Below, one piece after another: positions 1,389 to 64,000 of a stretch of 64,000 nt of DNA (within the stretch, counting starts at the first letter, position 1; the number at the start of each line of letters is the position of its first letter). The stretch is taken from the IMG/VR virus record IMGVR_UViG_3300023084_000017, positions 1,041 to 65,040 of that record; one strand, given 5' to 3'. The stretch comes from a virus. Its lineage: Duplodnaviria; Caudoviricetes. The notes beneath the pieces are model-generated. The model saw only the letters and a list, made by a program, of their open reading frames with translations. It had not been told where the DNA came from and searched no databases. The position numbers and the translations under genes were made by a program.

Positions 1389-1984
1389 TATATAATCACC
1401 ATTGTCCCGTTATTTGTTACTGTGCCAGTAATAGTTACTGGTCCTGCTAATAATGTTCCTTCGTCAGAAGGTATTGTAAAAGTTGCAGCTTGTGTTTGAT
1501 TATGTCTAAACATACCGCCATTTGTTGTTAAAGCGATACCACCTGCATCTTGCACAGCAACCTCTGTTCCTGCAACATCATATCTAATTTTATCTTCATC
1601 AACGCCACCTTCATCTACTTGTATTTTAGTATCATTATCTGCGTCTAAAATAGCATCTGAAGATACTGATACAGTTGCATCTATTGCACCATCACCTGCG
1701 TCATCGTATGCAAAAGATATACCTGTATGAGTACCGTTAGTAACAAGCATATCACCAACAATATCTTCAATATTTTCTGTTGTATTACCTACTACTTCCC
1801 AAGAAGAACCATTATATATTTTAATTTTATTGTCGGTAGAATTGTATATCATCTCCCCTTCAGTTGTACCTGTAGGGTCAGAACTATGTACTGGAAGCAA
1901 TACTGTATCAGAGTTAGTAAACTCTGCTAAACCATCTGTATCTCCAGCAGTTCTTGTTACATGTAATAATCTATAAGTTGCCAT
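1388..1984 (-). CDS. Tail fibre-associated protein
   Basis: GEMIYNSTDNKIKIYNGSSW motif; C-terminus (DADNDTKIQV...AGP) resembles that of 3155..8698. Confidence 0.7.
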   Translation of the reverse strand: MATYRLLHVTRTAGDTDGLAEFTNSDTVLLPVHSSDPTGTTEGEMIYNSTDNKIKIYNGSSWEVVGNTTENIEDIVGDMLVTNGTHTGISFAYDDAGDGAIDATVSVSSDAILDADNDTKIQVDEGGVDEDKIRYDVAGTEVAVQDAGGIALTTNGGMFRHNQTQAATFTIPSDEGTLLAGPVTITGTVTNNGTMVII

Positions 1985-41533: not shown

Positions 41534-41547
41534 GGAAAGGAGAGAAT

Positions 41548-41712
41548 ATGACACAGTCAGACCCAATTTATGGGGTAATTGCTATGTCATTTCTGTTTGG
41601 CTTAGGGGTAACACTCTTAGCTGGATGGGTATGGCTATATGCAACTGAGTGGCTAATGGCAAAGTTCAATGTATCTGACCCATTAGACAGACACTACAAG
41701 AACTTGTTCTAG
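41548..41712 (+). CDS. 54-aa membrane peptide
   Basis: GAAAGGAG RBS; hydrophobic VIAMSFLFGLGVTLLAGWVWLY segment. Confidence 0.6.
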   Translation: MTQSDPIYGVIAMSFLFGLGVTLLAGWVWLYATEWLMAKFNVSDPLDRHYKNLF

Positions 41713-41787
41713 TAGATAAATCAAGCTCATCTTAACAGGTGGGCTTGGACTTATCTATAAAGATAAGAGAATAGAAAGGAGAGACCA

Positions 41788-41889
41788 ATGTCTAGTCTTA
41801 ACGTTGGGATTGATTGGCTAAATCCTTGTGAAAAATGTTCAACAGAAAATGAACAAACATTTCACAATGATGGTAATGAGTGTGCATAA
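41788..41889 (+). CDS. 33-aa Cys/His peptide (CEKC...H....EC)
   Basis: TAGAAAGGAGA RBS; TAATG coupling to the next ORF. Confidence 0.55.
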   Translation: MSSLNVGIDWLNPCEKCSTENEQTFHNDGNECA

Positions 41890-41951
41890 TGGCAGACTCT
41901 AAACAATGCACATGTGACCCAGTTCATGTGTGCAAACTACTTAATAAATAG
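41889..41951 (+). CDS. 20-aa peptide MADSKQCTCDPVHVCKLLNK
   Basis: Translationally coupled; motif shared with the C-terminus of 42492..42740. Confidence 0.5.
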   Translation: MADSKQCTCDPVHVCKLLNK

Positions 41952-41963
41952 AAAGGAGACTAC

Positions 41964-42095
41964 ATGATAAGGCGTATATTGTCTTATTGGAGAATACGTA
42001 ATCTCATACTTGCACTTCTATATCAACGCAGAAATAGATTTGTTAGCAGAATTGCTTTCAAGTTATGGCTGTATGTAGATGAAGTAGGCGTGTAG
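41964..42095 (+). CDS. 43-aa cationic amphipathic peptide
   Basis: TAGAAAGGAGAC RBS; MIRRILSYWRIRNLILALLYQRRNRF... Confidence 0.5.
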   Translation: MIRRILSYWRIRNLILALLYQRRNRFVSRIAFKLWLYVDEVGV

Positions 42096-42163
42096 ATAGA
42101 TAATGCCCATGGGAAACTGTGGGCATTGACCTATCTATGTGGATAGGAGAAACGGAGAAGCTA

Positions 42164-42424
42164 ATGGCTAGAAACCATGAGCGTAATAGTTCTGTAGCTG
42201 AGTCTATAGATACTGCTAATGAATCAGGAGACTGGATGAGCAGTTATCTTAGAGGAGATATAGAGCTAGTCGGTGGCAATGGTAAGTTCAGAAGAACTGA
42301 AGATGCTACTACTAAACAAACTAAAGATAAAAACAACATTACTGAGGAAGACTTAGTCAATGAATTAGAGAATGATGGTGATTTCTTTAATGAAATGATG
42401 AACGCTTTTAAGAGTAATGAATAG
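42164..42424 (+). CDS. Hypothetical early protein
   Basis: ORF 42119..42424; likely start MARNHE behind GGAGA. Confidence 0.6.
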   Translation: MARNHERNSSVAESIDTANESGDWMSSYLRGDIELVGGNGKFRRTEDATTKQTKDKNNITEEDLVNELENDGDFFNEMMNAFKSNE

Positions 42425-42491
42425 ACAATACTATGACTGGACGGCTGAGATTGACGAACTCGGCTGTCCTGTTGGATAGAAAGGAGAATAT

Positions 42492-42740
42492 ATGAGCGAG
42501 AGCTTGCTCAATTTAGATGAAGATACCATCTTAAGTATCAGAAATCGATATAGAGGAATAGTTCAAGTATTAGAACGAACTCCTGAACAGCAAGAATTCT
42601 TTGCTGAGAAAAAGAAATACTATGAAGAACAGGAAGCATTGGGTAATGATAACCCATTGCCTTATCTGCACTATCTAAAGAGAAAGAAATACAGAGAAAT
42701 GCTAGGCACATGTTCATGTGACCCAGTACACGTCTGTTAG
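42492..42740 (+). CDS. Hypothetical early protein ending CSCDPVHVC
   Basis: TAGAAAGGAGA RBS. Confidence 0.65.
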   Translation: MSESLLNLDEDTILSIRNRYRGIVQVLERTPEQQEFFAEKKKYYEEQEALGNDNPLPYLHYLKRKKYREMLGTCSCDPVHVC

Positions 42741-42751
42741 AAAGGAGAGAT

Positions 42752-43090
42752 ATGACTGAACTATTTGAAATCAAGTATCACAACTCAATATTTAATGTTG
42801 AGTTATGTGAACACCCAGATAGTTATTCATACCAAACATATGTTACTCACGGAAGTAGTGGTGACTTGTTAATGGGAGGATTTGAAACAATCAATGAGTG
42901 TATTGATTACATTAAATCTGAATGTAAAGCAAGTTCTGAACATTACGTAAGTGAATGGCATTCAATGTTAGAACCATATGGAACAACCTGTTTCTGTTTA
43001 GAAGATAACTGGAAAGATATTCCAGAAGGAACAATGTTAAACAACATTAACAGAGAAAGGTTAGGAAACACTTATACAGTGTTTGAATAG
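42752..43090 (+). CDS. Hypothetical early protein
   Basis: TAGAAAGGAGA RBS. Confidence 0.65.
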   Translation: MTELFEIKYHNSIFNVELCEHPDSYSYQTYVTHGSSGDLLMGGFETINECIDYIKSECKASSEHYVSEWHSMLEPYGTTCFCLEDNWKDIPEGTMLNNINRERLGNTYTVFE

Positions 43091-43100
43091 AAAGGAGAGT

Positions 43101-43244
43101 ATGAAGTACTTACTATATAGGCTATTGCCTTTATTTGTACTAGAACGATTGGCTGAAAGGAAGTATCAAAGGGAAACCTTAATAGATACAACCTATGATT
43201 CAATCATAGATAAGTCCTACTTTACAGTAGGAAGAAAGGGGTAG
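43101..43244 (+). CDS. 47-aa hypothetical protein
   Basis: TAGAAAGGAGA RBS; MKYLLYRLLPLFVLERLAERKY... Confidence 0.45.
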   Translation: MKYLLYRLLPLFVLERLAERKYQRETLIDTTYDSIIDKSYFTVGRKG

Positions 43245-43373
43245 GATGCAAGAACTACTCAAGACCGAAGATACTTTAAGTATTAACGGTTCAATATATA
43301 GGGAGATGGTAGATTCGTTTACCATCCCCTTCTTAGTAACAGAAGACATTGAAATCATAAAGGAGGATAAATA

Positions 43374-43598
43374 ATGTCACAGGTACGTTGGGCAAAAGCC
43401 CTTTCTCAACTCGAGAAGAAAATGGAAGATAACAAAGTAGAATATCAAATCGCTGATGAGGTAAAGCTCAGCATTGAAGCGAACGATGCAAGAGACGATG
43501 ATTCTGTAAAGGCAATCATTGAGGAAGTATGTTTCGCTTTTGGCGGTGGAGATGTTGTTACTATCTTCGACATAGTGAAAGAAGACCAAGAGTCTTAA
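43374..43598 (+). CDS. 74-aa acidic protein flanked by hairpins
   Basis: AAAGGAGG RBS; stem-loops at 43301-43329 and 43598-43634. Confidence 0.7.
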   Translation: MSQVRWAKALSQLEKKMEDNKVEYQIADEVKLSIEANDARDDDSVKAIIEEVCFAFGGGDVVTIFDIVKEDQES

Positions 43599-43795
43599 TA
43601 GCTCGGAGCCCATTACGGTGGGCTCTAGGGTATTGGGATGGTCCTAATATCAGAAAGGTAATCATGGATATTAAAACTGATTATGACTTACTTGTTAAAG
43701 ATGGTGAGTCAGATGATGTTATAAAAGAAATCTTACACTTAATCTGGATTCCAGAGGTAGTGGAGGAGTTCTTTAAAAATAAAAAATAAATACCG

Positions 43796-43825
43796 TGTAA
43801 CCAAATCTCCTATTGGAAGGTCTAA
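43796..43825 (+). promoter_or_regulatory. ECF-sigma-like promoter TGTAACC-N17-GTCTAA
   Basis: One of seven copies with identical 17-nt spacing; upstream of the amidoligase. Confidence 0.7.
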
Positions 43826-43884
43826 TAGGGGAACGGTACAGACATTGCTACATCAGAAATGAGTAGCAGAAGGAGGAAGGATAA

Positions 43885-45795
43885 ATGAAAGTATTGCAAT
43901 TGGCTGAGGCCAACGCAATTGCTGATGCACAACCCGACATCAATCATGCACCTAATTTTAGGTATGGTGATTATGACGGACTTGTGTTCCTATGTGACGT
44001 TAACGAAATCGTCACTCAAACACATATAAGTAACTGTGGTCAAACAGAATACTTGTATTCAATACTGGAACCTTATCTTCAATTATTTGATGATAAAGGT
44101 TATGACATACTTGATTGGATAGAAGAACTAGACAATCAAATGAATCAAGTAGCTAATTCCTTACACCTAAAGGACTGGGTCTTAACAAAAGAAACAGATT
44201 CTATTAACCAAGGTGTGATGATTGGTATTTACCAAATGGATACTACTGTATTCGGTGGTTATGCGAACCATGAGTGGCAAACCTACTTTACCAACAATGA
44301 TGGTAAGGTTACTAACTATGGTCGTCGTATGGCCATGGAGAAAAGTAGCAGTAGGTTCATGCCACTTCGTGACTTAGAACAGAACATTGGTGCTCGATAC
44401 ACTAAGTGTGTCATGTGTCAATGCTTCAACAAAGTCAGAACACACATGGTACCAATACGACATGCTAAGCCTGGTGCAAGGCAAGCTTGGAGCAACAGAA
44501 AGAATGTATGTATATCATGCATCAAGTATGTTGCCAAAGACCAACTTGTATCACAGAACAGACCAAATCTAAGATTGTGGCAAGGTTCAGTAGGATTCGA
44601 TGGCATAGACCAACTATTCTACAACCCTTCACGAGATGATTGGTCATGGAATGATACTTGGGGAACTGATGTATTCGAGAATGCAAATGCTGAATACAAA
44701 AGATTCTTCCGCAAGTTAGATGAAGATACCATCTTCAGAATCAGAATGATTGAACGAATTGATATTCCTAGATGGACATTTAGATTCGATACAACATTCC
44801 ACAATTGGAACTACAGGTTCCCTGTGAGATTAGTAGGAGTTAGAGAAGATGGATTGATAGAATCAGACAGTCCTGGTGGAAATTACCAAGATACTGATTG
44901 GTTCTACAACACAGGTCCTTACTATGGTATGGAGTTTGAATGCTTTGTCAGAAATGACAGAAGTGATTACAGAGATTCCAACATAGTAATGGAAGATACA
45001 ATCCGTATGTTCCACGATACTGATTATCCAAAGGCACATATGGAGTTCTATGATGGTGAGCATCAACTGTTGTACAGAAAACATGATGGTAGCTTAAGAG
45101 ATGGTATAGGAGTTGAGTTTGTATCTCAACCACTTAGCTATGACTACTGGATGAAAGAAATACCACAGAGATTCTGGGATTATTTCCAGAACAATTTCAG
45201 AGCTAGGAACTCTGAGGAATGTGGAATACACATTCATATTGGATGGGATAGTATGCAAGTTGCAGAACGTTATGTATTCCTTAAGATACTAAACGAGCTC
45301 AACAAGAAACGAAGCCCATTACTTGCAGCTATTGCAGGTAGAGATAGTACATACTATGCAACATGGAACACTCTGTTCTATCAAGGTAGTGCAGATACAG
45401 CATTCATGGTTGCAATGGAAAAGAAGCAGACAAGTCAGTCTTCTACTCCTAAGTACAATGCTATCAATACATTGCATGACAGCACTATAGAGTTGAGATA
45501 CTTTCAGGGTAATACAGGTAGAAAATCTATCTTAGGTATTGTCCAGTTTGTTGACTTAATCTACAGACATGCTGTTGATGTAATACATTCTGACACACAT
45601 AGTGAAGGTACTAGATGGGACTACTCGCAAGAAGGTCCACGTACATTCCTACAAAGTCAGTTAGACAAAATAAACAACAATGTGGATGAGTACTTACTAG
45701 ATGTACTCAGTAACTATCCGAACGACAGGATTAATTACTTAGTCCACAGATTAGAAATGGCAGACTACGAGTTGCCAGAAAACATAAACATATAA
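43885..45795 (+). CDS. Putative amidoligase (COOH-NH2 ligase, glutamine synthetase/GCS fold) with a long N-terminal region
   Basis: GMEFE..HDGSL..VEFVSQP..CGIHIH..KY.AIN..TIELRYF. Confidence 0.85.
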   Translation: MKVLQLAEANAIADAQPDINHAPNFRYGDYDGLVFLCDVNEIVTQTHISNCGQTEYLYSILEPYLQLFDDKGYDILDWIEELDNQMNQVANSLHLKDWVLTKETDSINQGVMIGIYQMDTTVFGGYANHEWQTYFTNNDGKVTNYGRRMAMEKSSSRFMPLRDLEQNIGARYTKCVMCQCFNKVRTHMVPIRHAKPGARQAWSNRKNVCISCIKYVAKDQLVSQNRPNLRLWQGSVGFDGIDQLFYNPSRDDWSWNDTWGTDVFENANAEYKRFFRKLDEDTIFRIRMIERIDIPRWTFRFDTTFHNWNYRFPVRLVGVREDGLIESDSPGGNYQDTDWFYNTGPYYGMEFECFVRNDRSDYRDSNIVMEDTIRMFHDTDYPKAHMEFYDGEHQLLYRKHDGSLRDGIGVEFVSQPLSYDYWMKEIPQRFWDYFQNNFRARNSEECGIHIHIGWDSMQVAERYVFLKILNELNKKRSPLLAAIAGRDSTYYATWNTLFYQGSADTAFMVAMEKKQTSQSSTPKYNAINTLHDSTIELRYFQGNTGRKSILGIVQFVDLIYRHAVDVIHSDTHSEGTRWDYSQEGPRTFLQSQLDKINNNVDEYLLDVLSNYPNDRINYLVHRLEMADYELPENINI

Positions 45796-45808
45796 AGAAA
45801 GGAAATAT

Positions 45809-46747
45809 ATGTGCGTAATAGCAAGCGTCCCTGCGACGAAAAACATAGATAACAATACCCTTGACCAAATGTGGAAGAGAAACCCAGATGGTGGAGGTAT
45901 TGCTTGGATAGATGAGAATGGAAAGGTTCAAGTCTACAAGACAATGAAACTCAAGAGCTTCAAGCAGAAGTTCAAAGAGGTGGTAGCTAAGTATGGTAAG
46001 TCAGACATACTTGTACACATGAGAATAGCAACTCATGGTTCTGTATGTATTGATAACAACCATCCATTCCACATCGACCCTAATACGGTCTTTGCACACA
46101 ATGGAATCATGCCTAGTGAGTTCCATCCACCTGCTAAGTCAGATATGTCTGATACAAGATACTTCAATCAAGTATTCTTGCAGAATGTCAAGCCGACTGC
46201 ATTTGATGATGAGCAGTTCAGAACAGCACTTGGAGATATCGTAGGCTTCAACAAGCTAGTGATACTCTCAGCCAACAAGAGACTGAAGAAAGAATCGTAC
46301 ATTATCAATGAGCATATGGGTTCATGGGAGAAAGGTGTTTGGTATTCCAATACACATCACAAACCATACAAGAAACCTACAAGCATAATCGGCAGCACAA
46401 CTATACAGCCAAGGTTGTTAGACACAACTGAGGATGCATGCTTCATCAATGAAGATACTGGTGACATCTGGTATGAAGATGCTCATGACATTATTTACTC
46501 AGAGTTTATACCTGAGGATATGTTAGATGATGTTGAGTTGCAGGACAAGATAACAGTAATGCTAGAAAATTCAGTGATGGATTACTACACAGTAGATGAC
46601 CTAATCATTGACTATGCATTACAGTTTGTTCCTGAGACCAAGTCATTCCAATGTGAAGAATGTGGAGCAGAGGTTGACGACAAGCTTAAGAGAGCATGTA
46701 ACAAAGAATGTGAGTGTCAATACTTACAAGAAATGACAAGGAGGTAA
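45809..46747 (+). CDS. Class II (Ntn) glutamine amidotransferase
   Basis: Cys2 nucleophile (MCVI), NPDG.G, H.RIATHG, N.HPF, HNG, SDT motifs; C-terminal Cys cluster. Confidence 0.9.
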   Translation: MCVIASVPATKNIDNNTLDQMWKRNPDGGGIAWIDENGKVQVYKTMKLKSFKQKFKEVVAKYGKSDILVHMRIATHGSVCIDNNHPFHIDPNTVFAHNGIMPSEFHPPAKSDMSDTRYFNQVFLQNVKPTAFDDEQFRTALGDIVGFNKLVILSANKRLKKESYIINEHMGSWEKGVWYSNTHHKPYKKPTSIIGSTTIQPRLLDTTEDACFINEDTGDIWYEDAHDIIYSEFIPEDMLDDVELQDKITVMLENSVMDYYTVDDLIIDYALQFVPETKSFQCEECGAEVDDKLKRACNKECECQYLQEMTRR

Positions 46748-46748
46748 C

Positions 46749-47138
46749 GTGGTAGTTCCTGACTGGAATAGAGTAGGTTCGCAAGAGCCTACTCAATCTA
46801 TTGGTAACAACGAGTCATATCCTTTATATCAGAGAGAAGAAGATGATATAGAAAATAGACGAGTAAGAATAACAACTGAACATGTAGGTAGAGTAACTTA
46901 CACAGAGAATGGTTATACAACTTATAACATGAGTGAAGTACTTGACTATGCAGTTGAAGTGGGATACTTAGGTTCCACTGACAGACTAGCTGGTAACCTA
47001 CCTTTAGATAACGTATTGAGAGAGTGGGCTCAAGAATTATTTGAAGAGAATTGGGATATTGACGATTATGAAAACTACGAAACTGGTGATGATTATGAAC
47101 AACAAGATTCATACATCGAAGACGTAGAAATTATATAA
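46749..47138 (+). CDS. Acidic PxWN-family protein 1
   Basis: Starts MVVPDWNR; GGAGG RBS; Asp/Glu/Tyr-rich. Confidence 0.7.
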   Translation: MVVPDWNRVGSQEPTQSIGNNESYPLYQREEDDIENRRVRITTEHVGRVTYTENGYTTYNMSEVLDYAVEVGYLGSTDRLAGNLPLDNVLREWAQELFEENWDIDDYENYETGDDYEQQDSYIEDVEII

Positions 47139-47152
47139 GAAAGGAGATTACA

Positions 47153-48223
47153 TTGGACGACCAACGTAAATCAGAAATCAAAAGAAAAATAACATACAAC
47201 ATGGACATGGATGTTCATGGATATGGTTACAAACCAAGCGTCTACTTTATTGGTAGAAACTTAGTGCAGTCTGCACTTGCAAGTAAGGAAGCTCAAGCAG
47301 AGCATGCATTCTTTACACTAGAAGGTCTGCCTATGGGTATGGAGTTGGAAGTTGAATACAGAAGAGATGTCTACTGTGACATTGAAGATGTAATTCATAC
47401 TATCAACAAGGAAGCTATGAGTAGAGCCTATGTAGATAGGTTCAATGAGTACGACAATGATGTTCTTACTCACCATACTGTATCACCAGTACAGTTCTTC
47501 ATAGCTAAGACTGACGGTTCACTAAGTGATGGTATTGAGTTTGTATCTCAACCAATGTCACTTGGTGTATGGAGAGACATACCATTGGTGTTCGAGGACT
47601 ACAATGATGTCTTTGCTGCATTCCACAGACGAACTACTGGATTGCACATTCATGTACCGAAAGCTGCATTTACAGATTCACATCTATTCACATGGATGTT
47701 GTTGATGCAGACACTTGGTAAAACAAGTATCAATCACAATACAACAGGCTCACTATTGTCCCTTATTGGTCAGAGAAGATTCAATAACTGGGCAAGGTTT
47801 GAACAACCAACAGTGAGTGCAGAAGTTAAATCTAAGTTAGCACAAGTTGCAATCGATAGAACGAATACTGATGGACAAAGATATAAGTATCTCAATCTAC
47901 ATCCGCAACACACAATAGAACTTAGGTTCTTCAAAGCTAACCTTAAGACAAATCGACTACTCAAGAACTTAGAGTTTGTCGATTCAACTTATGAATACAC
48001 AAAGATGCTTGACACAACTAAGGATAGTATGACAATACTAGACAGTGTGTTGAGTGCTAGTGATTGGTATGAGTACATTCAACAAGAGAAGTACTCAAAC
48101 TTAACAGAGTATCTAAGACCATACGAACACAGATTCGGTAGTCAATTAGATGCATTAGATACTAGATACGACTTGGACAATGAGTTTGACCAAGAAGTTC
48201 TAGCACATATGAAAGGAGAATAG
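47153..48223 (+). CDS. Second putative amidoligase
   Basis: GMELE..DGSL..IEFVSQP..GLHIH..RY..LN..TIELRFF. Confidence 0.85.
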   Translation: MDDQRKSEIKRKITYNMDMDVHGYGYKPSVYFIGRNLVQSALASKEAQAEHAFFTLEGLPMGMELEVEYRRDVYCDIEDVIHTINKEAMSRAYVDRFNEYDNDVLTHHTVSPVQFFIAKTDGSLSDGIEFVSQPMSLGVWRDIPLVFEDYNDVFAAFHRRTTGLHIHVPKAAFTDSHLFTWMLLMQTLGKTSINHNTTGSLLSLIGQRRFNNWARFEQPTVSAEVKSKLAQVAIDRTNTDGQRYKYLNLHPQHTIELRFFKANLKTNRLLKNLEFVDSTYEYTKMLDTTKDSMTILDSVLSASDWYEYIQQEKYSNLTEYLRPYEHRFGSQLDALDTRYDLDNEFDQEVLAHMKGE

Positions 48224-48402
48224 TGGACAAAAAATATAGAGTCCTGTATTGGGACGTTAGAGAACGTGATAAAGATATTATCACTACAACTATCGACCAT
48301 TACGCAGATGCATACAACTTCGCTTTTAACAGAGGCGGAGTTGTATTAGAGGAAGTAGTAAGCTTCGTTAGTTTATATGACGAAGGATTGGAGGAAGAAT
48401 AA

Positions 48403-48819
48403 ATGGCAACTGTACCAGCTTGGAACAGAATCAAAACAAGACTTGAGGAGTTAGGCTATAGCCTAACCCTCGAGCAGTTTAAAAACCTAGAGATAGATAT
48501 CAGAATCATAGAGACTGGAACATGTGTTTACACACAGGAATCTAGAATCAGAGGTGACTTAGACACCTTAGTAGATATAGATGATGTGTTAGATTACGAC
48601 GCTGATGAATATGCTTTAGGTGACAGAATATCTGATTCACTTAGAGATACAGGTGAAATCTATGAAGGAAGCGTTACCAATGTTGAGTATGAAGACCATG
48701 ATGTAGATGAATGCTACATTGAGAATATCTATTACTCAGTAACCATGGAAGATGGTGAGGTTGTTAACTTAAACAAATCTGACATAACAGAACTATTACA
48801 AACACTAGGGAGGGAATAA
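48403..48819 (+). CDS. Acidic PxWN-family protein 2
   Basis: Starts MATVPAWNR; GGAGG RBS. Confidence 0.7.
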   Translation: MATVPAWNRIKTRLEELGYSLTLEQFKNLEIDIRIIETGTCVYTQESRIRGDLDTLVDIDDVLDYDADEYALGDRISDSLRDTGEIYEGSVTNVEYEDHDVDECYIENIYYSVTMEDGEVVNLNKSDITELLQTLGRE

Positions 48820-48913
48820 TGGATAATTATCAATACAATTATTTACATGAAGAATACGTCAATCCATTTGACGCAGAAAATATGTACGAAGATAGTTTAG
48901 AAGAGGAGTAGTA

Positions 48914-49120
48914 ATGAAAAATTTATGCCCACACAGGTACGAAGTTGCTCTCAGCTTTGCTCTTATCGGTATTGGTAAGAACAAAGAGGAGGCTATAGAA
49001 GAAGCATTGACTTGGGGTTTCCCCGATAGTAGTGCTGATATTAGAGATATGATTACAGTAAACAATGTAGAACAATCATGGGATATGGACACATGTGATA
49101 TATGTGAGGAGGAGGAATAA
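48914..49120 (+). CDS. Hypothetical protein
   Basis: GAGGAG RBS; KEEAIEEA motif common in small phage proteins. Confidence 0.6.
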   Translation: MKNLCPHRYEVALSFALIGIGKNKEEAIEEALTWGFPDSSADIRDMITVNNVEQSWDMDTCDICEEEE

Positions 49121-49516
49121 ATGACGATACCAAAATGGAATCAAACAGAAACAACACTATCTAACGATAGATTAAGTATGAGTAGTGCTGGAGATACAGA
49201 ATACTACATAGATGTACAACGAGATATTGTTAGAAGTGTACGATACCATCAGTCTGCTGCTTTGTATGTCACATTGCAACAACTGATTGAACTAGATTAC
49301 CTACCAAGTTCAGCGTATCATTATGAAGAAGATGGTATGGGTGGATTTGATGTAGAGATTACAGACCAACATGCAATGAATGTTGCATTAGAAGAATATG
49401 CATCAGACCAAGATGCTGATGATACATTCTTTGAAGCATATGAAGAAGAAGCATATGACTCTGGTGATGTTATTAGTACAACTGATACAGAGGTATATGA
49501 GTGGGGTGTTAACTAA
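49121..49516 (+). CDS. Acidic PxWN-family protein 3
   Basis: Starts MTIPKWNQ; GGAGG RBS. Confidence 0.7.
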   Translation: MTIPKWNQTETTLSNDRLSMSSAGDTEYYIDVQRDIVRSVRYHQSAALYVTLQQLIELDYLPSSAYHYEEDGMGGFDVEITDQHAMNVALEEYASDQDADDTFFEAYEEEAYDSGDVISTTDTEVYEWGVN

Positions 49517-49948
49517 AGAAAGGAGATTGTCATACAAATACTTAATCTTGAGTTTGTAAAATGGTTGATTGTAATGCTTATATCAATACCAATTACATTC
49601 TTATTAATAATAGCACTTGTAGTTACTGTAGATAACTACACTCTAGACGACTAGAGGTTATATTGAGAGCATCGTAACTGGTGCTCTCTCTTATGACCTA
49701 AAGTTAACCTAAACTAGCTACAGTCTTTATTGGCCCCATCGGGAGAGGTCTATTCTAAGAATCAAAGAGTAGTCCTTTTTTCTCGCCTTTCTCCCCGCCA
49801 CCCCTAAAGATGTAGAGATATATGGGAACTTTGCCACCGCAGAACTCTAATGTTTTTTGCCATCTGGTTTTGCATCTGAGTCTGGGCTGGGACTTCATTA
49901 CACACACGCCAATGATTTCTTTTTTACGCCAAATAAATTTATTAAGTG

Positions 49949-57998: not shown

Positions 57999-58104
57999 TA
58001 ATAATTTTATGTACTTGTATAGATTAAACTGTATACCCCACCTTGTCAAGGATTTAAATTAAAAACCTTTCTTTTTTCTGTATGAGTATTAAAATAAGTA
58101 TGAG

Positions 58105-61970: not shown

Positions 61971-62177
61971 GTTACAAGGAGCTATAGGAAAAGTATTGGG
62001 AGAGTTAGTTAACTGTACTGATATCGAATATTCTATAGACATGTGGACGAAAGTTGAGGAAAATGAATAGAGCTGAAAGAAGAGCTAACAAGTCTAAAAA
62101 AGGCGGGAAATATATAGGCCTTAATAAAAATAGACAGACACAAGTTGGAAGACTAAAAAAATATTAGAGGAGGAATA

Positions 62178-62795
62178 ATGCCTAACTGGGTAGATAATAA
62201 GTTAACAATTGAAGCAGATAAACAAACAATAGATAATATTTTCAATAAGATTAAATCACAACAGTTAAATGATTCTAAAGTTTATCAAATAGCTTTGGGT
62301 TTATATCCAATGCCTAATGATATTACTTATGTCATGGGTACTGGTGGCAGTGAACAATATGCAGTATTGCAAGATAAAATTGTAAGGCCACCATCAGTTA
62401 CTAACCTTGTTGATAAAAATTATGATGAAAGATTAGAATTTGTAGACCTTACAGAAGTTCAGAAAAGAGATTTGAATGAAAAACATGGTGCTACTAATTG
62501 GTATGACTGGAATGTAAAAAACTATGGAACTAAGTGGGGTGACTGTAGAACAGAGTTGATTAATCACGAAGAGTCTAAATTGGAATTTGTGTTTGAATCC
62601 CCATGGAGTCATAGTGCGGTGTTAGCACAAAGAATATCAGAAGATTATAAAGCATCAGTGGAACTTAAGCATTACTCAATAGAGAATTGGGAGAAGGGTA
62701 TGTTCTTATTTGAAGAAGGTACTTTACATAAGTCTGAGTATGAATTACTTGGAGACCCCGATGAAGTATTAGTACCAGTGAGTGAAGAAGAGTAA
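62178..62795 (+). CDS. YubB/Api92-like ferredoxin-fold protein (DUF1281-like)
   Basis: MPNW..N.L...WYDW....YGTKW...F...WS. Confidence 0.75.
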   Translation: MPNWVDNKLTIEADKQTIDNIFNKIKSQQLNDSKVYQIALGLYPMPNDITYVMGTGGSEQYAVLQDKIVRPPSVTNLVDKNYDERLEFVDLTEVQKRDLNEKHGATNWYDWNVKNYGTKWGDCRTELINHEESKLEFVFESPWSHSAVLAQRISEDYKASVELKHYSIENWEKGMFLFEEGTLHKSEYELLGDPDEVLVPVSEEE

Positions 62796-62840
62796 TACAG
62801 ATGATGGGTAAAGTTTCTAGTAGAATAGTAGGTAGCTTTA

Positions 62841-62898
62841 GGGCGGTATGTTTCGCCACGGGGTTCGCCTCCTTTCCTCGGGGAATTTTATACCGCCC
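62841..62898 (+). ncRNA. Hairpin RNA displaying anti-SD CCUCCUUU in its apical loop
   Basis: GGGCGGTAT/ATACCGCCC stem, inner CGGGG/CCTCG, loop TTCGCCTCCTTT. Confidence 0.5.
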
Positions 62899-62911
62899 AT
62901 CTTTATTTTTA

Positions 62912-62990
62912 GGGGGTGACAGGGATAGACTTATTGTTTTGCGGGACAGCGTTACAAGAAGTAACTGGGGTTCAATTCCCCACACCTCCA
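62912..62990 (+). ncRNA. tmRNA-like tRNA(Ala)-mimic domain lacking the mRNA-like domain
   Basis: Acceptor stem GGGGGTG/CACCTCC-A with G3.U70; stemless D-loop ending GAC; T-arm TGGGG-TTCAATT-CCCCA. Confidence 0.65.
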
Positions 62991-63030
62991 CTAATATCAC
63001 GCGAGTGATATAATGTTTCATAAAGAAAAT

Positions 63031-63089
63031 GGGGAGGTTGAAGTTCATACAGAAGTTGTCCTCTGTGTGGTCTCCTTTCTAACCTCTCT
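63031..63089 (+). ncRNA. Hairpin RNA containing GUCUCCUUUCUA (anti-SD)
   Basis: GGGGAGGTTG/TAACCTCTCT and CATACAGA/TCTGTGTG stems; TGnTATAAT at 63006-63014. Confidence 0.45.
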
Positions 63090-63123
63090 ATCTTCCTTTG
63101 TGTAACATACAGCTATCTGTAAT

Positions 63124-63561
63124 GCAGGTAGCTTGAACTGAAAGGTGCACTCCGTTAAAAGCGGACTCTTGCGAATGCATCGTTCGGTTCAAGGTACTTG
63201 CTTATAAGAATTTGTAAGTACTTGGCTACTGAAGAATAGGGTAATACCCAACAAGTAGGTAGCTTGTAGCACATAGCAGAGTTAAAGGTCTGCAGACACT
63301 TTAAACGATTGCTAAAAACTGTTGTGTGTTACAAGCTATCTATTAGTTCAGAACCATATTGGGATTGAAGTTGTAATGACTGAAAGTTTCAAGTCAGTAT
63401 GGATTAGTAGGTAGCTTGTAGCACATAGGACAATGGGTGTTATTACACGACTTAAATGCGTGGCATTGAAATAATATGCGACCCTCTCTGATAACATCAA
63501 TGAGTGGTTATCGCTTCACTGATAACATCATTAGATGTCTTGTGTGTTACAAGCTATCTAT
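63124..63561 (+). repeat. Array of long hairpins with conserved arms and variable interiors
   Basis: Units at 63124-63201, 63255-63343 and 63407-63561; the last two share an identical 23-nt 5' arm and 22-nt 3' arm. Confidence 0.75.
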
Positions 63562-63572
63562 AAGGAGAAATA

Positions 63573-63947
63573 GTGGAAGAATTAAAACACAATTTATTTG
63601 TGTATGGAACATTAAGAGAAGGTCAATCGCGTAACAATGTGTTTCGTGATGCAGAATATATAGGTGTCAGGAAGACCAAACCTCATTACACAATGTATAG
63701 TCTTGGTGCGTTCCCTGCGTTATCAACTCTTGGTAATACAGAAATAGTTGGAGATGTATATAAAGTATCTGATTACACATTAGAATTGTGCGATATGATT
63801 GAGGGACACCCTAGTTTTTACCAGAGATTACCTATTGAATTGCAAGATGAGTCTATAGAAGAACCATTTGCATACTTTATTGTAAATAGAAATTGGTCTG
63901 GACACGCAAAGATTGATAGTGGTAATTGGGTAAAGGAACTCATATAG
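63573..63947 (+). CDS. Gamma-glutamylcyclotransferase (AIG2-like)
   Basis: LFVYGTLR.G..FPAL..I.G.VY.V....L...D..EG.P..Y.R. Confidence 0.9.
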   Translation: MEELKHNLFVYGTLREGQSRNNVFRDAEYIGVRKTKPHYTMYSLGAFPALSTLGNTEIVGDVYKVSDYTLELCDMIEGHPSFYQRLPIELQDESIEEPFAYFIVNRNWSGHAKIDSGNWVKELI

Positions 63948-64000
63948 TCCCCTTCTACCCATTACACATTCTCCTTATACCAAAAGGACAAATCATTGGT

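What the first reader, a model, noticed from the sequence alone, without database searches (positions are those of the whole stretch)
62841..63089. Two anti-Shine-Dalgarno hairpin RNAs flanking the mini-tmRNA, complementary to the phage's own early RBSs
Hairpin 62841-62898 exposes CCTCCTTT(C) at 62868-62876, which resembles the 16S rRNA 3' end. Hairpin 63031-63089 contains GTCTCCTTTCTAAC (63070-63083). That sequence is the reverse complement of TAGAAAGGAGA at 41772, 42477 and 43088, with a 12-nt match at 41949 and a 13-nt match at 42736. Inference: trans-acting RNAs that shut off early-gene and strong-SD host translation while sparing leaderless late genes.
Basis: partly seen in the sequence, partly recalled or inferred. 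Interest (0 to 1): 0.7.

Follow-up and report, generated by a model that had tools for sequence, protein, structure and literature searches.

The report
Phage hairpin RNAs displaying anti-Shine-Dalgarno loops
Two conserved RNA hairpins beside a tag-less tmRNA in an uncultured marine phage each display the sequence ribosomes use to recognise gene starts, so they probably interfere with translation initiation, though this is untested.

Summary
H1 (62841-62898) and H2 (about 63029-63091) are real plus-strand RNA structures in a 777-nt non-coding gap, flanking a TLD-only tmRNA (62912-62990).

- **H1 family:** a covariance model finds H1 in 42 of 100 sources (28 distinct sequences). 12 of 20 pairs show compensatory change. 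The apical loop always carries CUCCUUUC.
- **H2:** 14 distinct sequences keep the same octamer in a 3' internal loop, a fixed distance from a covarying outer stem.
- **16S likeness:** the octamer lies in the published 16S rRNA 3' tail. Its complement GAAAGGAG occurs 9 times on the plus strand, all at 41.5-49.5 kb; those checked precede early-gene starts.
- **Minus-strand peptide reading rejected:** the start codon is missing in 11 of 18 loci.
- **Not known:** no Rfam family matches, and no bacterial genome carries H1.

Function is inferred only. Most likely (0.4) these are trans-acting RNAs that pair with strong Shine-Dalgarno sites. Rivals are a protein or ribosome-factor decoy, or a cis or structural role. 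"Leaderless late genes" is not supported; late genes are SD-poor internal cistrons.

Separately, the cluster is framed by a hairpin scaffold found in at least 120 viral contigs.

The parts
62795..62826 (+). Promoter-like bipartite motif, ATACA, 21 nt, TAGAAT. It overlaps the stop codon of the upstream 205-aa gene and ends 15 nt before the H1 stem.
   Evidence: The upstream regions of 35 distinct H1 loci share this arrangement. The pattern has 4 matches in the window against 1.36 expected, and 2 of 100 shuffles reach 4. One match (58004, minus strand) lies in a divergent intergenic region. The generic sigma-70 scan did not call it. Promoter function is inferred.
62829..62838 (+). 5' arm (TAGGTAGCTT) of a degenerate framing stem that encloses H1, the TLD and H2.
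   Evidence: It pairs with 63111-63120 in the minimum-energy folds of 62819-63125 and of the whole gap. Repeat families D1, D2 and D5 are listed. It is shared by the closest relatives L003, L005 and L006.
62841..62898 (+). H1, a 58-nt hairpin. It has a 10-bp GC-rich outer stem, a conserved internal loop (GUUUCG opposite AAUUUU), an 8-bp inner stem and an invariant 12-nt loop UUCGCCUCCUUU (62864-62875). The octamer CUCCUUUC lies at 62869-62876.
   Evidence: Fold and z-score are. Covariation on 16 sequences gives 9 of 20 pairs compensatory, 98.4% of cells paired and 0 of 500 shuffles as high. Model R1 finds 42 instances in 100 sources. On those, 12 of 20 pairs are compensatory.
62899..62911 (+). 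U-rich spacer AUCUUUAUUUUUA between H1 and the TLD. It could be a terminator-like tail of H1, the 5' leader that RNase P removes from the TLD, or both.
   Evidence: The tail is conserved as (A/G)UCUUU across the family. Two RNA-library contigs from two studies begin at 62911, which is only a weak hint. The terminator scan did not call H1.
62912..62990 (+). TLD-only 'mini-tmRNA'. It has an acceptor stem with G3.U70, a T-arm, and a P2 stem closed by a loop. It has no tag reading frame and no pseudoknots. CCA is not encoded; CUA follows.
   Evidence: Rfam RF00023 scores 43.1 bits against a gathering score of 47, E 2.4e-15. ARAGORN finds nothing. All 19 of 19 loci examined keep G3.U70 through four acceptor variants.
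62994..63011 (+). Small hairpin ATATCACGCGAGTGATAT directly after the TLD. The TATAAT it contains is part of its 3' arm.
   Evidence: Folds are. The arms covary in relatives (CATTAT/ATAATG, CATTACAT/ATGTAATG), and the hairpin is absent in the L036 and L041 groups.
63029..63091 (+). H2. It has an outer stem (about 63029-63039 with 63081-63091) and a variable inner hairpin (63045-63070). A 3' internal loop carries GGUCUCCUUUCUA, with the octamer CUCCUUUC at 63072-63079.
   Evidence: Fold and z-score are. In 14 distinct homologues the octamer is invariant. 12 of 16 outer-stem positions, counted from the motif, show pair types that differ on both sides. H2 is present in all 18 of 18 TLD-group loci that reach that far.
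63111..63120 (+). 3' arm (AGCTATCTGT) of the framing stem around H1, the TLD and H2.
63124..63201 (+). Unit B, a conserved long hairpin with an inner stem-loop and a conserved 3' bulge containing UCUUGCG. Function unknown. It belongs to the same conserved module.
   Evidence: Inverted repeat I2 is and the fold (-39.3 kcal/mol). It is present with UCUUGCG in 16 of 16 loci examined.
63250..63348 (+). Unit C, a framed hairpin with the conserved scaffold arms AGTAGGTAGCTTGTAGCACATAG and TGTGTGTTACAAGCTATCTAT.
   Evidence: The scaffold is widespread in viral contigs.
63402..63564 (+). Unit D, a framed structured RNA with the same scaffold arms. Its inner part (63434-63487) is about 87-91% identical in five distant relatives.
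41535..49525 (+). Candidate targets: nine GAAAGGAG sites on the plus strand, lying in the early plus-strand module. They include the five TAGAAAGGAGA sites.
   Evidence: Sites are listed. H2 pairs at -16.4 to -17.1 kcal/mol with four of them.

Best explanation
H1 and H2 are two structured small RNAs of a phage-specific RNA module. In the window's lineage the order is H1, a TLD-only tmRNA, a small hairpin, H2 and unit B. They are encoded on the plus strand and made from a polycistronic or sRNA-type transcript.

Each displays the invariant octamer CUCCUUUC in an unpaired loop. That octamer lies within the conserved 3' tail of 16S rRNA, the anti-Shine-Dalgarno region.

The most likely mechanism is trans base-pairing of the octamer with GAAAGGAG-type Shine-Dalgarno regions. 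The phage's own early small genes are the best matches, and strong-SD host messages would also pair. The RNAs would compete with 30S subunits, and the resulting duplex could also become an RNase substrate. Once the RNAs accumulate, this would lower translation of strong-SD messages relative to the SD-poor structural genes.

**Shown:** the structures, the strand, the conservation of the octamer, its exposure in H1, the complementarity, and the autonomy of H1 from its neighbours.

**Inferred:** transcription and processing, trans action, the targets and the direction of the effect.
For: 1. **Selection on the octamer.** It is invariant in 28 distinct H1 sequences (42 instances) while 12 of 20 stem pairs change on both sides. 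It is also invariant in 14 distinct H2 sequences, 1-3 nt (2-3 in most rows) from a covarying stem. The one H1 variant (L045, GACUCCUUUC) breaks CCUCC but keeps CUCCUUUC, the same core as H2.
2. **Two contexts, one octamer.** It sits in an apical loop in H1 and a 3' internal loop in H2. A shared complementary target explains that most simply.
3. **Exposure.** In H1, bases 1-7 are unpaired with probability 0.63-1.0 in all 28 sequences.
4. **Complementarity.** CTCCTTTC has 12 matches in the window against 2.15 expected, 0 of 100 shuffles as high. Nine are the antisense of plus-strand sites at 41535-49525. Median duplex energy with H1 and H2 is -12.3 and -11.0 kcal/mol for 19 early genes, against -7.5 and -7.2 for 32 structural genes (Mann-Whitney p 1.6e-4 and 3.1e-5). 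0 of 200 shuffled H2 probes do as well.
5. **H1 is autonomous.** In 22 distant loci it occurs without a TLD or H2, between different genes. It keeps its upstream ATACA-N21-TA[GA]AAT motif and its GC-rich stem base followed by (A/G)UCUUU.
6. **Co-occurrence.** The three H1-bearing viral records hold 18 other GAAAGGAG sites in about 110 kb. These are the window with 10, and G001 and G002 with 4 each, each 5-7 nt before a start codon. Eight H1-less records hold 5 in about 241 kb.
7. **Plus-strand RNA.** G.U pairs make the plus strand fold better. RNA-library contigs cover 62748-62898 and 62911-63253, but DNA carry-over cannot be excluded.
Against: - No strand-resolved or end-resolved RNA data and no experiment exist. 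The host is unknown.
- The complementarity cannot be separated from SD strength. A generic 16S tail scores the same, so 'targets' are defined circularly.
- The phage would repress its own early genes only if the RNAs reach molar excess over mRNA and 30S. Nothing here speaks to abundance.
- H1 also has a sequence-conserved internal loop and tail. A pure antisense RNA does not need these, which points to a protein partner or tertiary structure.
- The H2 octamer is only moderately accessible in silico.
- The H2 variant (UCUCC or CCUCC) does not track the local RBS type in relatives.
- The co-occurrence count is confounded by relatedness and probably by host.
- In the distant group H1 lies 10-25 nt upstream of an RBS, which also fits a cis role.
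Confidence: 0.4

Rival explanations
1. Decoy or mimic of the 16S rRNA 3' tail. The loops bind a protein or factor that normally contacts the pyrimidine-rich tail. Candidates are ribosomal protein S1 or bS21, an initiation or hibernation factor, a maturation RNase, or a host toxin or defence nuclease that cuts the anti-SD region. The RNAs would titrate it, acting alongside the TLD, which is thought to titrate SmpB.
For: - H1 plus its closing base reads GUUCGCCUCCUUUC. By my comparison this matches 12 of 14 positions of the tail GAUCACCUCCUUUC tabulated in PMC6288834.
- H2 in the window, UCUCCUUUCUA, matches 10 of 11 positions of CCUCCUUUCUA.
- H1 has extra sequence-conserved unpaired parts, the internal loop and the tail, as expected for a protein-bound RNA.
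- In the window's lineage the RNAs sit next to another translation-factor mimic, the TLD. Passages in PMC4131195 say a TLD-only molecule inhibits tmRNA, perhaps by titrating SmpB.
Against: No candidate partner is identified. The residues just 5' of the octamer differ between H1 subfamilies and H2 (UUCGC, UUUUUUGC, GGU, GUGC, CUGCC), so only the SD-complementary core is shared. H1 occurs in 22 loci without a TLD.
Confidence: 0.2
2. Cis-acting or structural element. H1 could be a terminator, a stabiliser, an antitermination signal or a processing signal for the RNA cluster. In the distant group its loop could fold back on the SD of the next gene as a pseudoknot and control that gene. H2 would be a processing or stability module for the TLD precursor.
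For: - H1 has a GC-rich stem base followed by a U-rich tail.
- In 22 loci H1 lies 10-25 nt upstream of the RBS of a roughly 150-190 aa gene.
- The scan calls the H2 inner hairpin plus UCUCCUUUCU terminator-like.
- The cluster is built of processing-type stems.
Against: - A terminator or stabiliser does not need an invariant 8-nt loop word. The same word recurs in the unrelated H2 structure.
- In the window's lineage no RBS follows H1; the TLD follows it in 19 of 19 loci that reach far enough, and L013 is cut inside it.
- The neighbouring genes differ between the two groups, and the distant-group downstream gene has no homologue in this genome.
- The H2 'terminator' is enclosed by a covarying outer stem.
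- The scan does not call H1 a terminator.
Confidence: 0.2
3. The motifs are minus-strand ribosome-binding sites for small peptides. This is the refuter the first reader proposed.
For: On the minus strand the H1 motif reads GAAAGGAGG, with GTG 8 nt downstream in the window. A start codon lies 7-11 nt downstream in 7 of 18 loci.
Against: No start codon lies 3-13 nt downstream in 11 of 18 loci. Where one exists, the peptides are 15-104 aa, are not conserved, and run antisense into the upstream gene. Substitutions preserve RNA pairing, including G.U pairs that work only on the plus strand.
Confidence: 0.02
4. Chance resemblance in AT-rich intergenic DNA.
For: CCUCC-like words are short.
Against: The octamer is invariant in 42 H1 instances and 14 distinct H2 sequences while the stems covary. 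The fold z-scores are -3.7 and -4.3.
Confidence: 0.01

Closest known systems
C-rich-loop regulatory RNAs of Staphylococcus aureus (RNAIII hairpins, RsaA and other Rsa RNAs with the UCCC motif). Sources: PMC2790875, PMC2837412 and PMC3961350, seen only as search listing and start of abstract.
   Same: Stable structured RNAs present a short pyrimidine-rich word in unpaired loops, and that word pairs with Shine-Dalgarno regions to arrest translation. One RNA may carry several such loops.
   Different: - Those are host chromosomal regulators with specific target sets and shorter, looser motifs.
- Here the word is an exact 8-9 nt copy of the 16S tail, so any strong SD could be a target.
- The RNAs here are phage-encoded, sit in a processed cluster with a tmRNA mimic, and share no sequence homology with the staphylococcal RNAs. 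No Rfam hit was found.
C4 antisense RNA of phages P1 and P7. PMC4919922 lists it, citing Hartmann et al. 1995, as a phage regulatory RNA whose precursor is an RNase P substrate (passages). Its action on an RBS is recalled, not checked here.
   Same: A phage-encoded structured antisense RNA matured by tRNA-processing machinery. Here RNase P cutting at the TLD 5' end would create the H1 3' end. It acts through exposed loops on a phage ribosome-binding region.
   Different: C4 targets one specific operon through gene-specific complementarity. H1 and H2 carry the generic anti-SD word. There is no homology; Rfam holds curated phage RNA families and none matched.
The 3' tail of 16S rRNA (anti-Shine-Dalgarno), tabulated as GAUCACCUCCUUUCU(A) for many bacteria in PMC6288834 Table 1 (passages).
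   Same: CCUCCUUUC is reproduced exactly in H1. UCUCCUUUCUA in H2 matches 10 of 11 positions. The partners would be the same, namely SD sequences.
   Different: The word is presented in hairpin loops of small RNAs, not at the free 3' end of rRNA within a 30S subunit. The sequences flanking the word are unrelated to helix 45.
TLD-only tmRNA of mycobacteriophage DS6A (PMC4131195 and PMC11915505, passages).
   Same: The element between H1 and H2 is likewise little more than the tRNA-like domain of tmRNA. An unrelated high-GC viral contig (L002) carries another such element.
   Different: This entry concerns the neighbour, not H1 or H2. The passages read on DS6A mention no flanking anti-SD hairpins, and L002 has none.

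Membership tests
tmRNA (Rfam RF00023), for the element between the hairpins | tRNA-like domain: 7-bp acceptor stem with G3.U70 and a T-arm | tested here: met
   Alignment to RF00023 and fold. All 19 of 19 loci keep G3.U70 through acceptor variants GGGGGUG, GGGGACG, GGGAGUG and GGGGGCG.
tmRNA (Rfam RF00023), for the element between the hairpins | mRNA-like domain with a tag reading frame and pseudoknots, and a score at or above the curated gathering score | tested here: not met
   About 310 model positions are replaced by 26 nt. The score is 43.1 bits against a gathering score of 47. ARAGORN finds no tmRNA. It is therefore a TLD-only form, not a full tmRNA.
Trans-acting antisense sRNA that blocks ribosome-binding sites | Conserved, exposed single-stranded seed | tested here: met
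   The octamer is invariant. In H1, bases 1-7 are unpaired with probability 0.63-1.0. H2 is only moderately exposed.
Trans-acting antisense sRNA that blocks ribosome-binding sites | Complementary target sites at RBSs | tested here: met
   Nine GAAAGGAG sites lie on the window's plus strand in the early module, with duplexes down to -17.1 kcal/mol for called genes. In G001 and G002, 4 and 4 sites lie 5-7 nt before start codons. The match cannot be distinguished from ordinary SD strength.
Trans-acting antisense sRNA that blocks ribosome-binding sites | Own transcription unit, or defined processing, giving a discrete stable RNA | tested here: inconclusive
   A conserved promoter-like motif and a U-rich tail are present. 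RNA-library contigs end at 62898 and begin at 62911, but contigs show neither ends nor strand.
Trans-acting antisense sRNA that blocks ribosome-binding sites | Seed-dependent repression of targets | not testable with these tools
   This needs toeprinting or reporters with compensatory mutations.
Intrinsic (Rho-independent) terminator | Short GC-rich hairpin followed directly by a U run | tested here: inconclusive
   The scan does not call H1. It calls the H2 inner hairpin plus UCUCCUUUCU, with only 3 GC pairs. H1 has a GC-rich base and an interrupted U tract, but it is 58 nt long with an invariant loop.
Any curated RNA family (Rfam 15, 4227 models) | Covariance-model match over H1 or H2 | tested here: not met
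   No match at gathering score in the 64 kb. At E up to 10 in 62000-64000, no hit covers H1. The only hit that reaches H2 is a sub-threshold partial match to tmRNA_permuted (62966-63042, 24.3 bits against a gathering score of 47, E 0.019); it overlaps the H2 5' arm and was judged a chance match.

The most novel reading that the evidence does not exclude
A phage 'translation-takeover' RNA cassette in which several small RNAs each imitate a different piece of the host translation apparatus. Two imitate the 16S anti-Shine-Dalgarno tail (H1, H2). One is a tag-less tmRNA tRNA-like domain. One more is a conserved RNA of unknown mimicry (unit B). All would be cut from one precursor by conserved framing stems. 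Together they would re-programme which messages ribosomes start on, soaking up or masking strong-SD leaders or a tail-binding factor, while blocking ribosome rescue. That would give an RNA-only early-to-late translational switch.
Probability: 0.25. Interest if true: 0.85.

Novelty: new variant of a known kind. Interest (0 to 1): 0.7.

Why it matters
Phage control of host and phage translation is known mostly from proteins. RNA regulators that mask individual ribosome-binding sites are known, but a virus-encoded RNA carrying the generic ribosomal anti-SD word has not turned up. It did not appear in Rfam or in my four literature searches.

If the loops do pair with SD sites, or decoy a tail-binding factor, this is a simple, portable way to shift translation away from strong-SD messages. 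It is testable in vitro without the uncultured host. It could also serve as a synthetic-biology part that lowers SD-dependent initiation globally.

The family is well defined: 42 instances with strong covariation. It travels with a TLD-only tmRNA in one lineage, which links two forms of interference with the ribosome.

The framing-stem scaffold seen in passing occurs in at least 120 viral contigs with about 136 different inserts. It may be a general phage small-RNA expression or processing system.

Tried and rejected
- **Minus-strand peptide reading of H1.** Rejected.
- **TATAAT at 63010 as a promoter for H2.** It is the 3' arm of a covarying small hairpin, and is absent or replaced in relatives. 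The sigma-70 scan found 9 sites against 9.3 expected, none there.
- **H2 5' arm as an alternative acceptor strand.** The Rfam tmRNA_permuted partial hit scores 24.3 bits, E 0.019. The arm sequence is not conserved in relatives, so this looks like a chance match.
- **Pairing of the octamer with the TLD 5' strand, the H2 5' arm or unit B.** The partners vary while the octamer does not.
- **Covariation between the H2 variant and RBS type.** Counts are too few and not in the expected direction for L007, L008 and L011.
- **Close relatives among isolated phages.** No DNA match. Protein hits were only distant, to actinophage, Thermus and haloarchaeal virus genes. The host remains unknown.
- **H1 in bacteria or in IMG/VR by pattern.** 0 hits in genome contigs and 0 in viral contigs. 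The pattern was built for the TLD-group loop. The distant form is present in two IMG/VR records.
- **RNA-library coverage.** The gap 62899-62910 has no cover in the four runs laid, and depths are per contig, so nothing can be concluded about abundance, ends or strand.
- **MAFFT alignment of H2 (A3).** It put the motif out of register in some rows, so it was not used for counting. An anchored count was done. Its pairs come from each sequence's own fold and so lean towards pairing.
- **Supplementary tables of PMC10690425.** This is a catalogue of 10,006 candidate viral structured RNAs and may list H1 or the scaffold. The tables could not be seen.
Full report
**Setting.** The window is bases 1041-65040 of a 65,040-bp IMG/VR virus record that CheckV rates complete. 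Structural genes (portal, terminase, major head protein) lie on the minus strand at 0.1-40.5 kb. A module of small plus-strand genes follows at 40.9-50.9 kb. The finding lies in a 777-nt gap without credible ORFs (62796-63572). The gap sits between two plus-strand genes: a 205-aa protein with a weak DUF1281_C match, and a GGACT-family protein. No isolated phage is close. Relatives come from marine, estuarine and salt-marsh metagenomes. The host is unknown.

**Anatomy of the gap.** The elements, in order, are:
- a promoter-like motif (62795-62826);
- H1 (62841-62898);
- a U-rich spacer;
- a TLD-only tmRNA (62912-62990);
- a small hairpin (62994-63011);
- H2 (about 63029-63091);
- unit B (63124-63201);
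- two further framed RNAs, C (63250-63348) and D (63402-63564).

H1, the TLD and H2 are together enclosed by a 10-bp stem (62829-62838 with 63111-63120). That stem is a degenerate copy of the arms that frame units C and D. The plus strand of the gap folds to -289.5 kcal/mol and the minus strand to -210.9, because many pairs are G.U.

**Observation check.** H1 and H2 fold better than all 200 shuffles, with z -3.72 and -4.26. The one correction is that the H2 motif sits in a 3' internal loop, not an apical loop.

**H1 is a conserved RNA family.**
- I anchored on the upstream 205-aa protein and fetched 80 metagenome and 18 viral loci.
- Nineteen of these carry the exact 12-nt loop UUCGCCUCCUUU.
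- On 16 distinct sequences the proposed structure is 98.4% paired, with 9 of 20 pairs changed on both sides. 0 of 500 shuffles reach this, and slid controls pair at 42-62%.
- A covariance model built from these finds 42 instances in 100 sources. Twenty score 79-100 bits; this is the TLD group, including the window. Twenty-two score 46-54 bits and form a distant group.
- On all 42 (28 distinct), 12 of 20 pairs are compensatory and 94.8% of cells pair. That alignment is fitted to the model, which favours pairing.
- The distant group has a longer loop, UUUUUUGCCUCCUUUCUU, and no TLD, H2 or unit B. It lies in a spacer of about 100 nt between other genes.
- One variant reads GACUCCUUUC (L045). The invariant core is therefore CUCCUUUC.
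- Three further features are conserved: an internal loop (GUUUCG opposite AAUUUU), a GC-rich stem base followed by (A/G)UCUUU, and an upstream ATACA-N21-TA[GA]AAT motif.
- H1 thus behaves as an autonomous unit that keeps its own flanking signals in different gene contexts.
- It is absent from one genome each of 185,579 bacterial and archaeal species by pattern search.

**H2.** It is present in all 18 TLD-group loci that extend far enough. In 14 distinct sequences CUCCUUUC is invariant. It is preceded by U or C, followed by U in 13 of 14, and lies 1-3 nt (2-3 in most rows) before the 3' arm of the outer stem. Counted from the motif, 12 of 16 outer-stem positions show pair types that differ on both sides, and 2 are invariant. 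Those pairs are taken from each sequence's own fold, which biases towards pairing. The inner hairpin is variable. Predicted exposure of the octamer is moderate and uneven.

**Strand and coding.** The minus-strand reading, SD plus GTG, fails. Eleven of 18 loci have no start codon 3-13 nt downstream, and the peptides elsewhere are unrelated.

**Neighbours and expression.**
- The TLD matches Rfam tmRNA at 43.1 bits, below the gathering score of 47 because the whole mRNA-like part is missing.
- G3.U70 is kept in 19 of 19 loci through compensatory acceptor variants.
- TLD-only tmRNA is known from mycobacteriophage DS6A. A similar molecule inhibits tmRNA, perhaps by titrating SmpB (passages of PMC4131195 and PMC11915505).
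- RNase P processes pre-tmRNA and the P1/P7 C4 RNA precursor (passage of PMC4919922). Cutting at 62911/62912 would therefore leave H1 with a U-rich 3' tail. This is inference.
- In four metatranscriptome runs, contigs cover 62748-62898 and 62911-63253, and an 81-nt contig equals 62911-62991. Two contigs from two studies start at 62911.
- These are contigs from RNA libraries. They show presence only, not strand, ends or level.

**Complementarity.**
- CUCCUUUC lies within the 16S 3' tail GAUCACCUCCUUUCU(A) tabulated for many bacteria (PMC6288834 Table 1).
- Its complement GAAAGGAG occurs 9 times on the plus strand, all at 41535-49525. Those that precede called genes are listed as RBSs.
- Duplexes of H1 and H2 with the 22 nt upstream of start codons have medians of -12.3 and -11.0 kcal/mol for 19 early genes. 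For 32 structural genes they are -7.5 and -7.2 (p 1.6e-4 and 3.1e-5).
- A generic 16S tail gives -12.5 against -7.4. The preference for early genes is therefore simply SD strength.
- H2 in this lineage (UCUCC) pairs better than the 16S tail with four GGAGA-type sites: -16.4 to -17.1 against -14.1 to -14.7 kcal/mol.
- The two distant H1-bearing viral records each have 4 further GAAAGGAG sites, each 5-7 nt before a start codon of a small gene.
- Eight H1-less records, about 241 kb in total, have 5 sites. The three H1-bearing records have 18 in about 110 kb. This is suggestive, but confounded by relatedness and host.

**Mechanism.** The simplest account of one invariant octamer in two unrelated structural contexts is a shared base-pairing partner. 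The only abundant partner class is SD regions. I therefore favour trans-acting SD masking, at 0.4.

A tail-mimic decoy for a protein or factor (0.2) is favoured by the additional conserved unpaired parts of H1 and by the company of the TLD.

A cis or structural role (0.2) is favoured by the terminator-like tail and by the distant-group position just upstream of an RBS. It does not explain the window's lineage or the shared octamer.

**Novelty.** Rfam 15 has no model that covers H1. The only hit that touches H2 is the sub-threshold tmRNA_permuted match judged a chance match. Four literature searches found no phage RNA carrying the anti-SD word. The closest mechanistic relatives are the C-rich-loop RNAs of S. 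aureus (listings and abstracts only) and the P1/P7 C4 RNA (its mode of action is recalled).

**Limits.** There is no host, no strand-specific RNA data and no experiment. Relatives were found through one anchor gene, so linkage to that gene is by ascertainment. Most relatives are short contigs.

Noticed in passing
window 63250-63348 and 63402-63564 (also 62829-62838/63111-63120 and 63124-63201); loci L102-L221: A phage-wide 'framed hairpin' scaffold. The arms (A)GTAGGTAGCTTGTAGCACAT(AG) and TGTGTGTTACAAGCTATCTAT form a helix of about 23-26 bp with two conserved G.U pairs, on the plus strand only, around hypervariable inserts.

- It is in only 1 contig of the bacterial and archaeal genome collection, a MAG.
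- Across fetched loci there are 174 units in 127 loci, with 136 distinct inserts of about 20-110 nt.
- RNA-library contigs carry the same arms around other inserts at depth 70-123.
- It is not in Rfam.

It may be a processing or expression scaffold for phage small RNAs.
   Followed up: partly
window 63124-63201 (unit B): A conserved structured RNA with an inner hairpin and a conserved bulge containing UCUUGCG. It is present in 16 of 16 TLD-group loci examined. The P2 loop of the TLD in many relatives carries a similar UUGCGGGAC word. Function unknown.
   Followed up: partly
window 63434-63487 (inside unit D): A 54-nt core of unit D is 87-91% identical in five distant relatives (L043, L047, L049, L050, L051). 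There it lies about 2 kb upstream of the anchor gene and in the opposite orientation. It is another conserved phage RNA of unknown function.
   Followed up: no
window 62795-62826, 58004-58034 (minus strand), 49532-49562, 1818-1847 (minus strand): The bipartite motif ATACA-N19-22-TA[GA]AAT has 4 matches in the window against 1.36 expected, and 2 of 100 shuffles reach 4. It precedes H1 in both subfamilies and also follows the anchor gene in several distant loci. It may be a phage promoter with unusual spacing.
   Followed up: partly
L002 3119-3200 (minus strand of the locus): An unrelated high-GC viral contig carries another TLD-only tmRNA next to a cluster that, by eye, looks like tRNA genes (not scanned). 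Its T-arm and 3' acceptor strand (25 nt) are identical to the window's. It has no anti-SD hairpins.
   Followed up: no
window 41535-49525: The early small genes use unusually long SDs, (U)AGAAAGGAG(A/G), up to 11 nt. The same holds for the first small genes of the early module in two distant relatives.
   Followed up: partly
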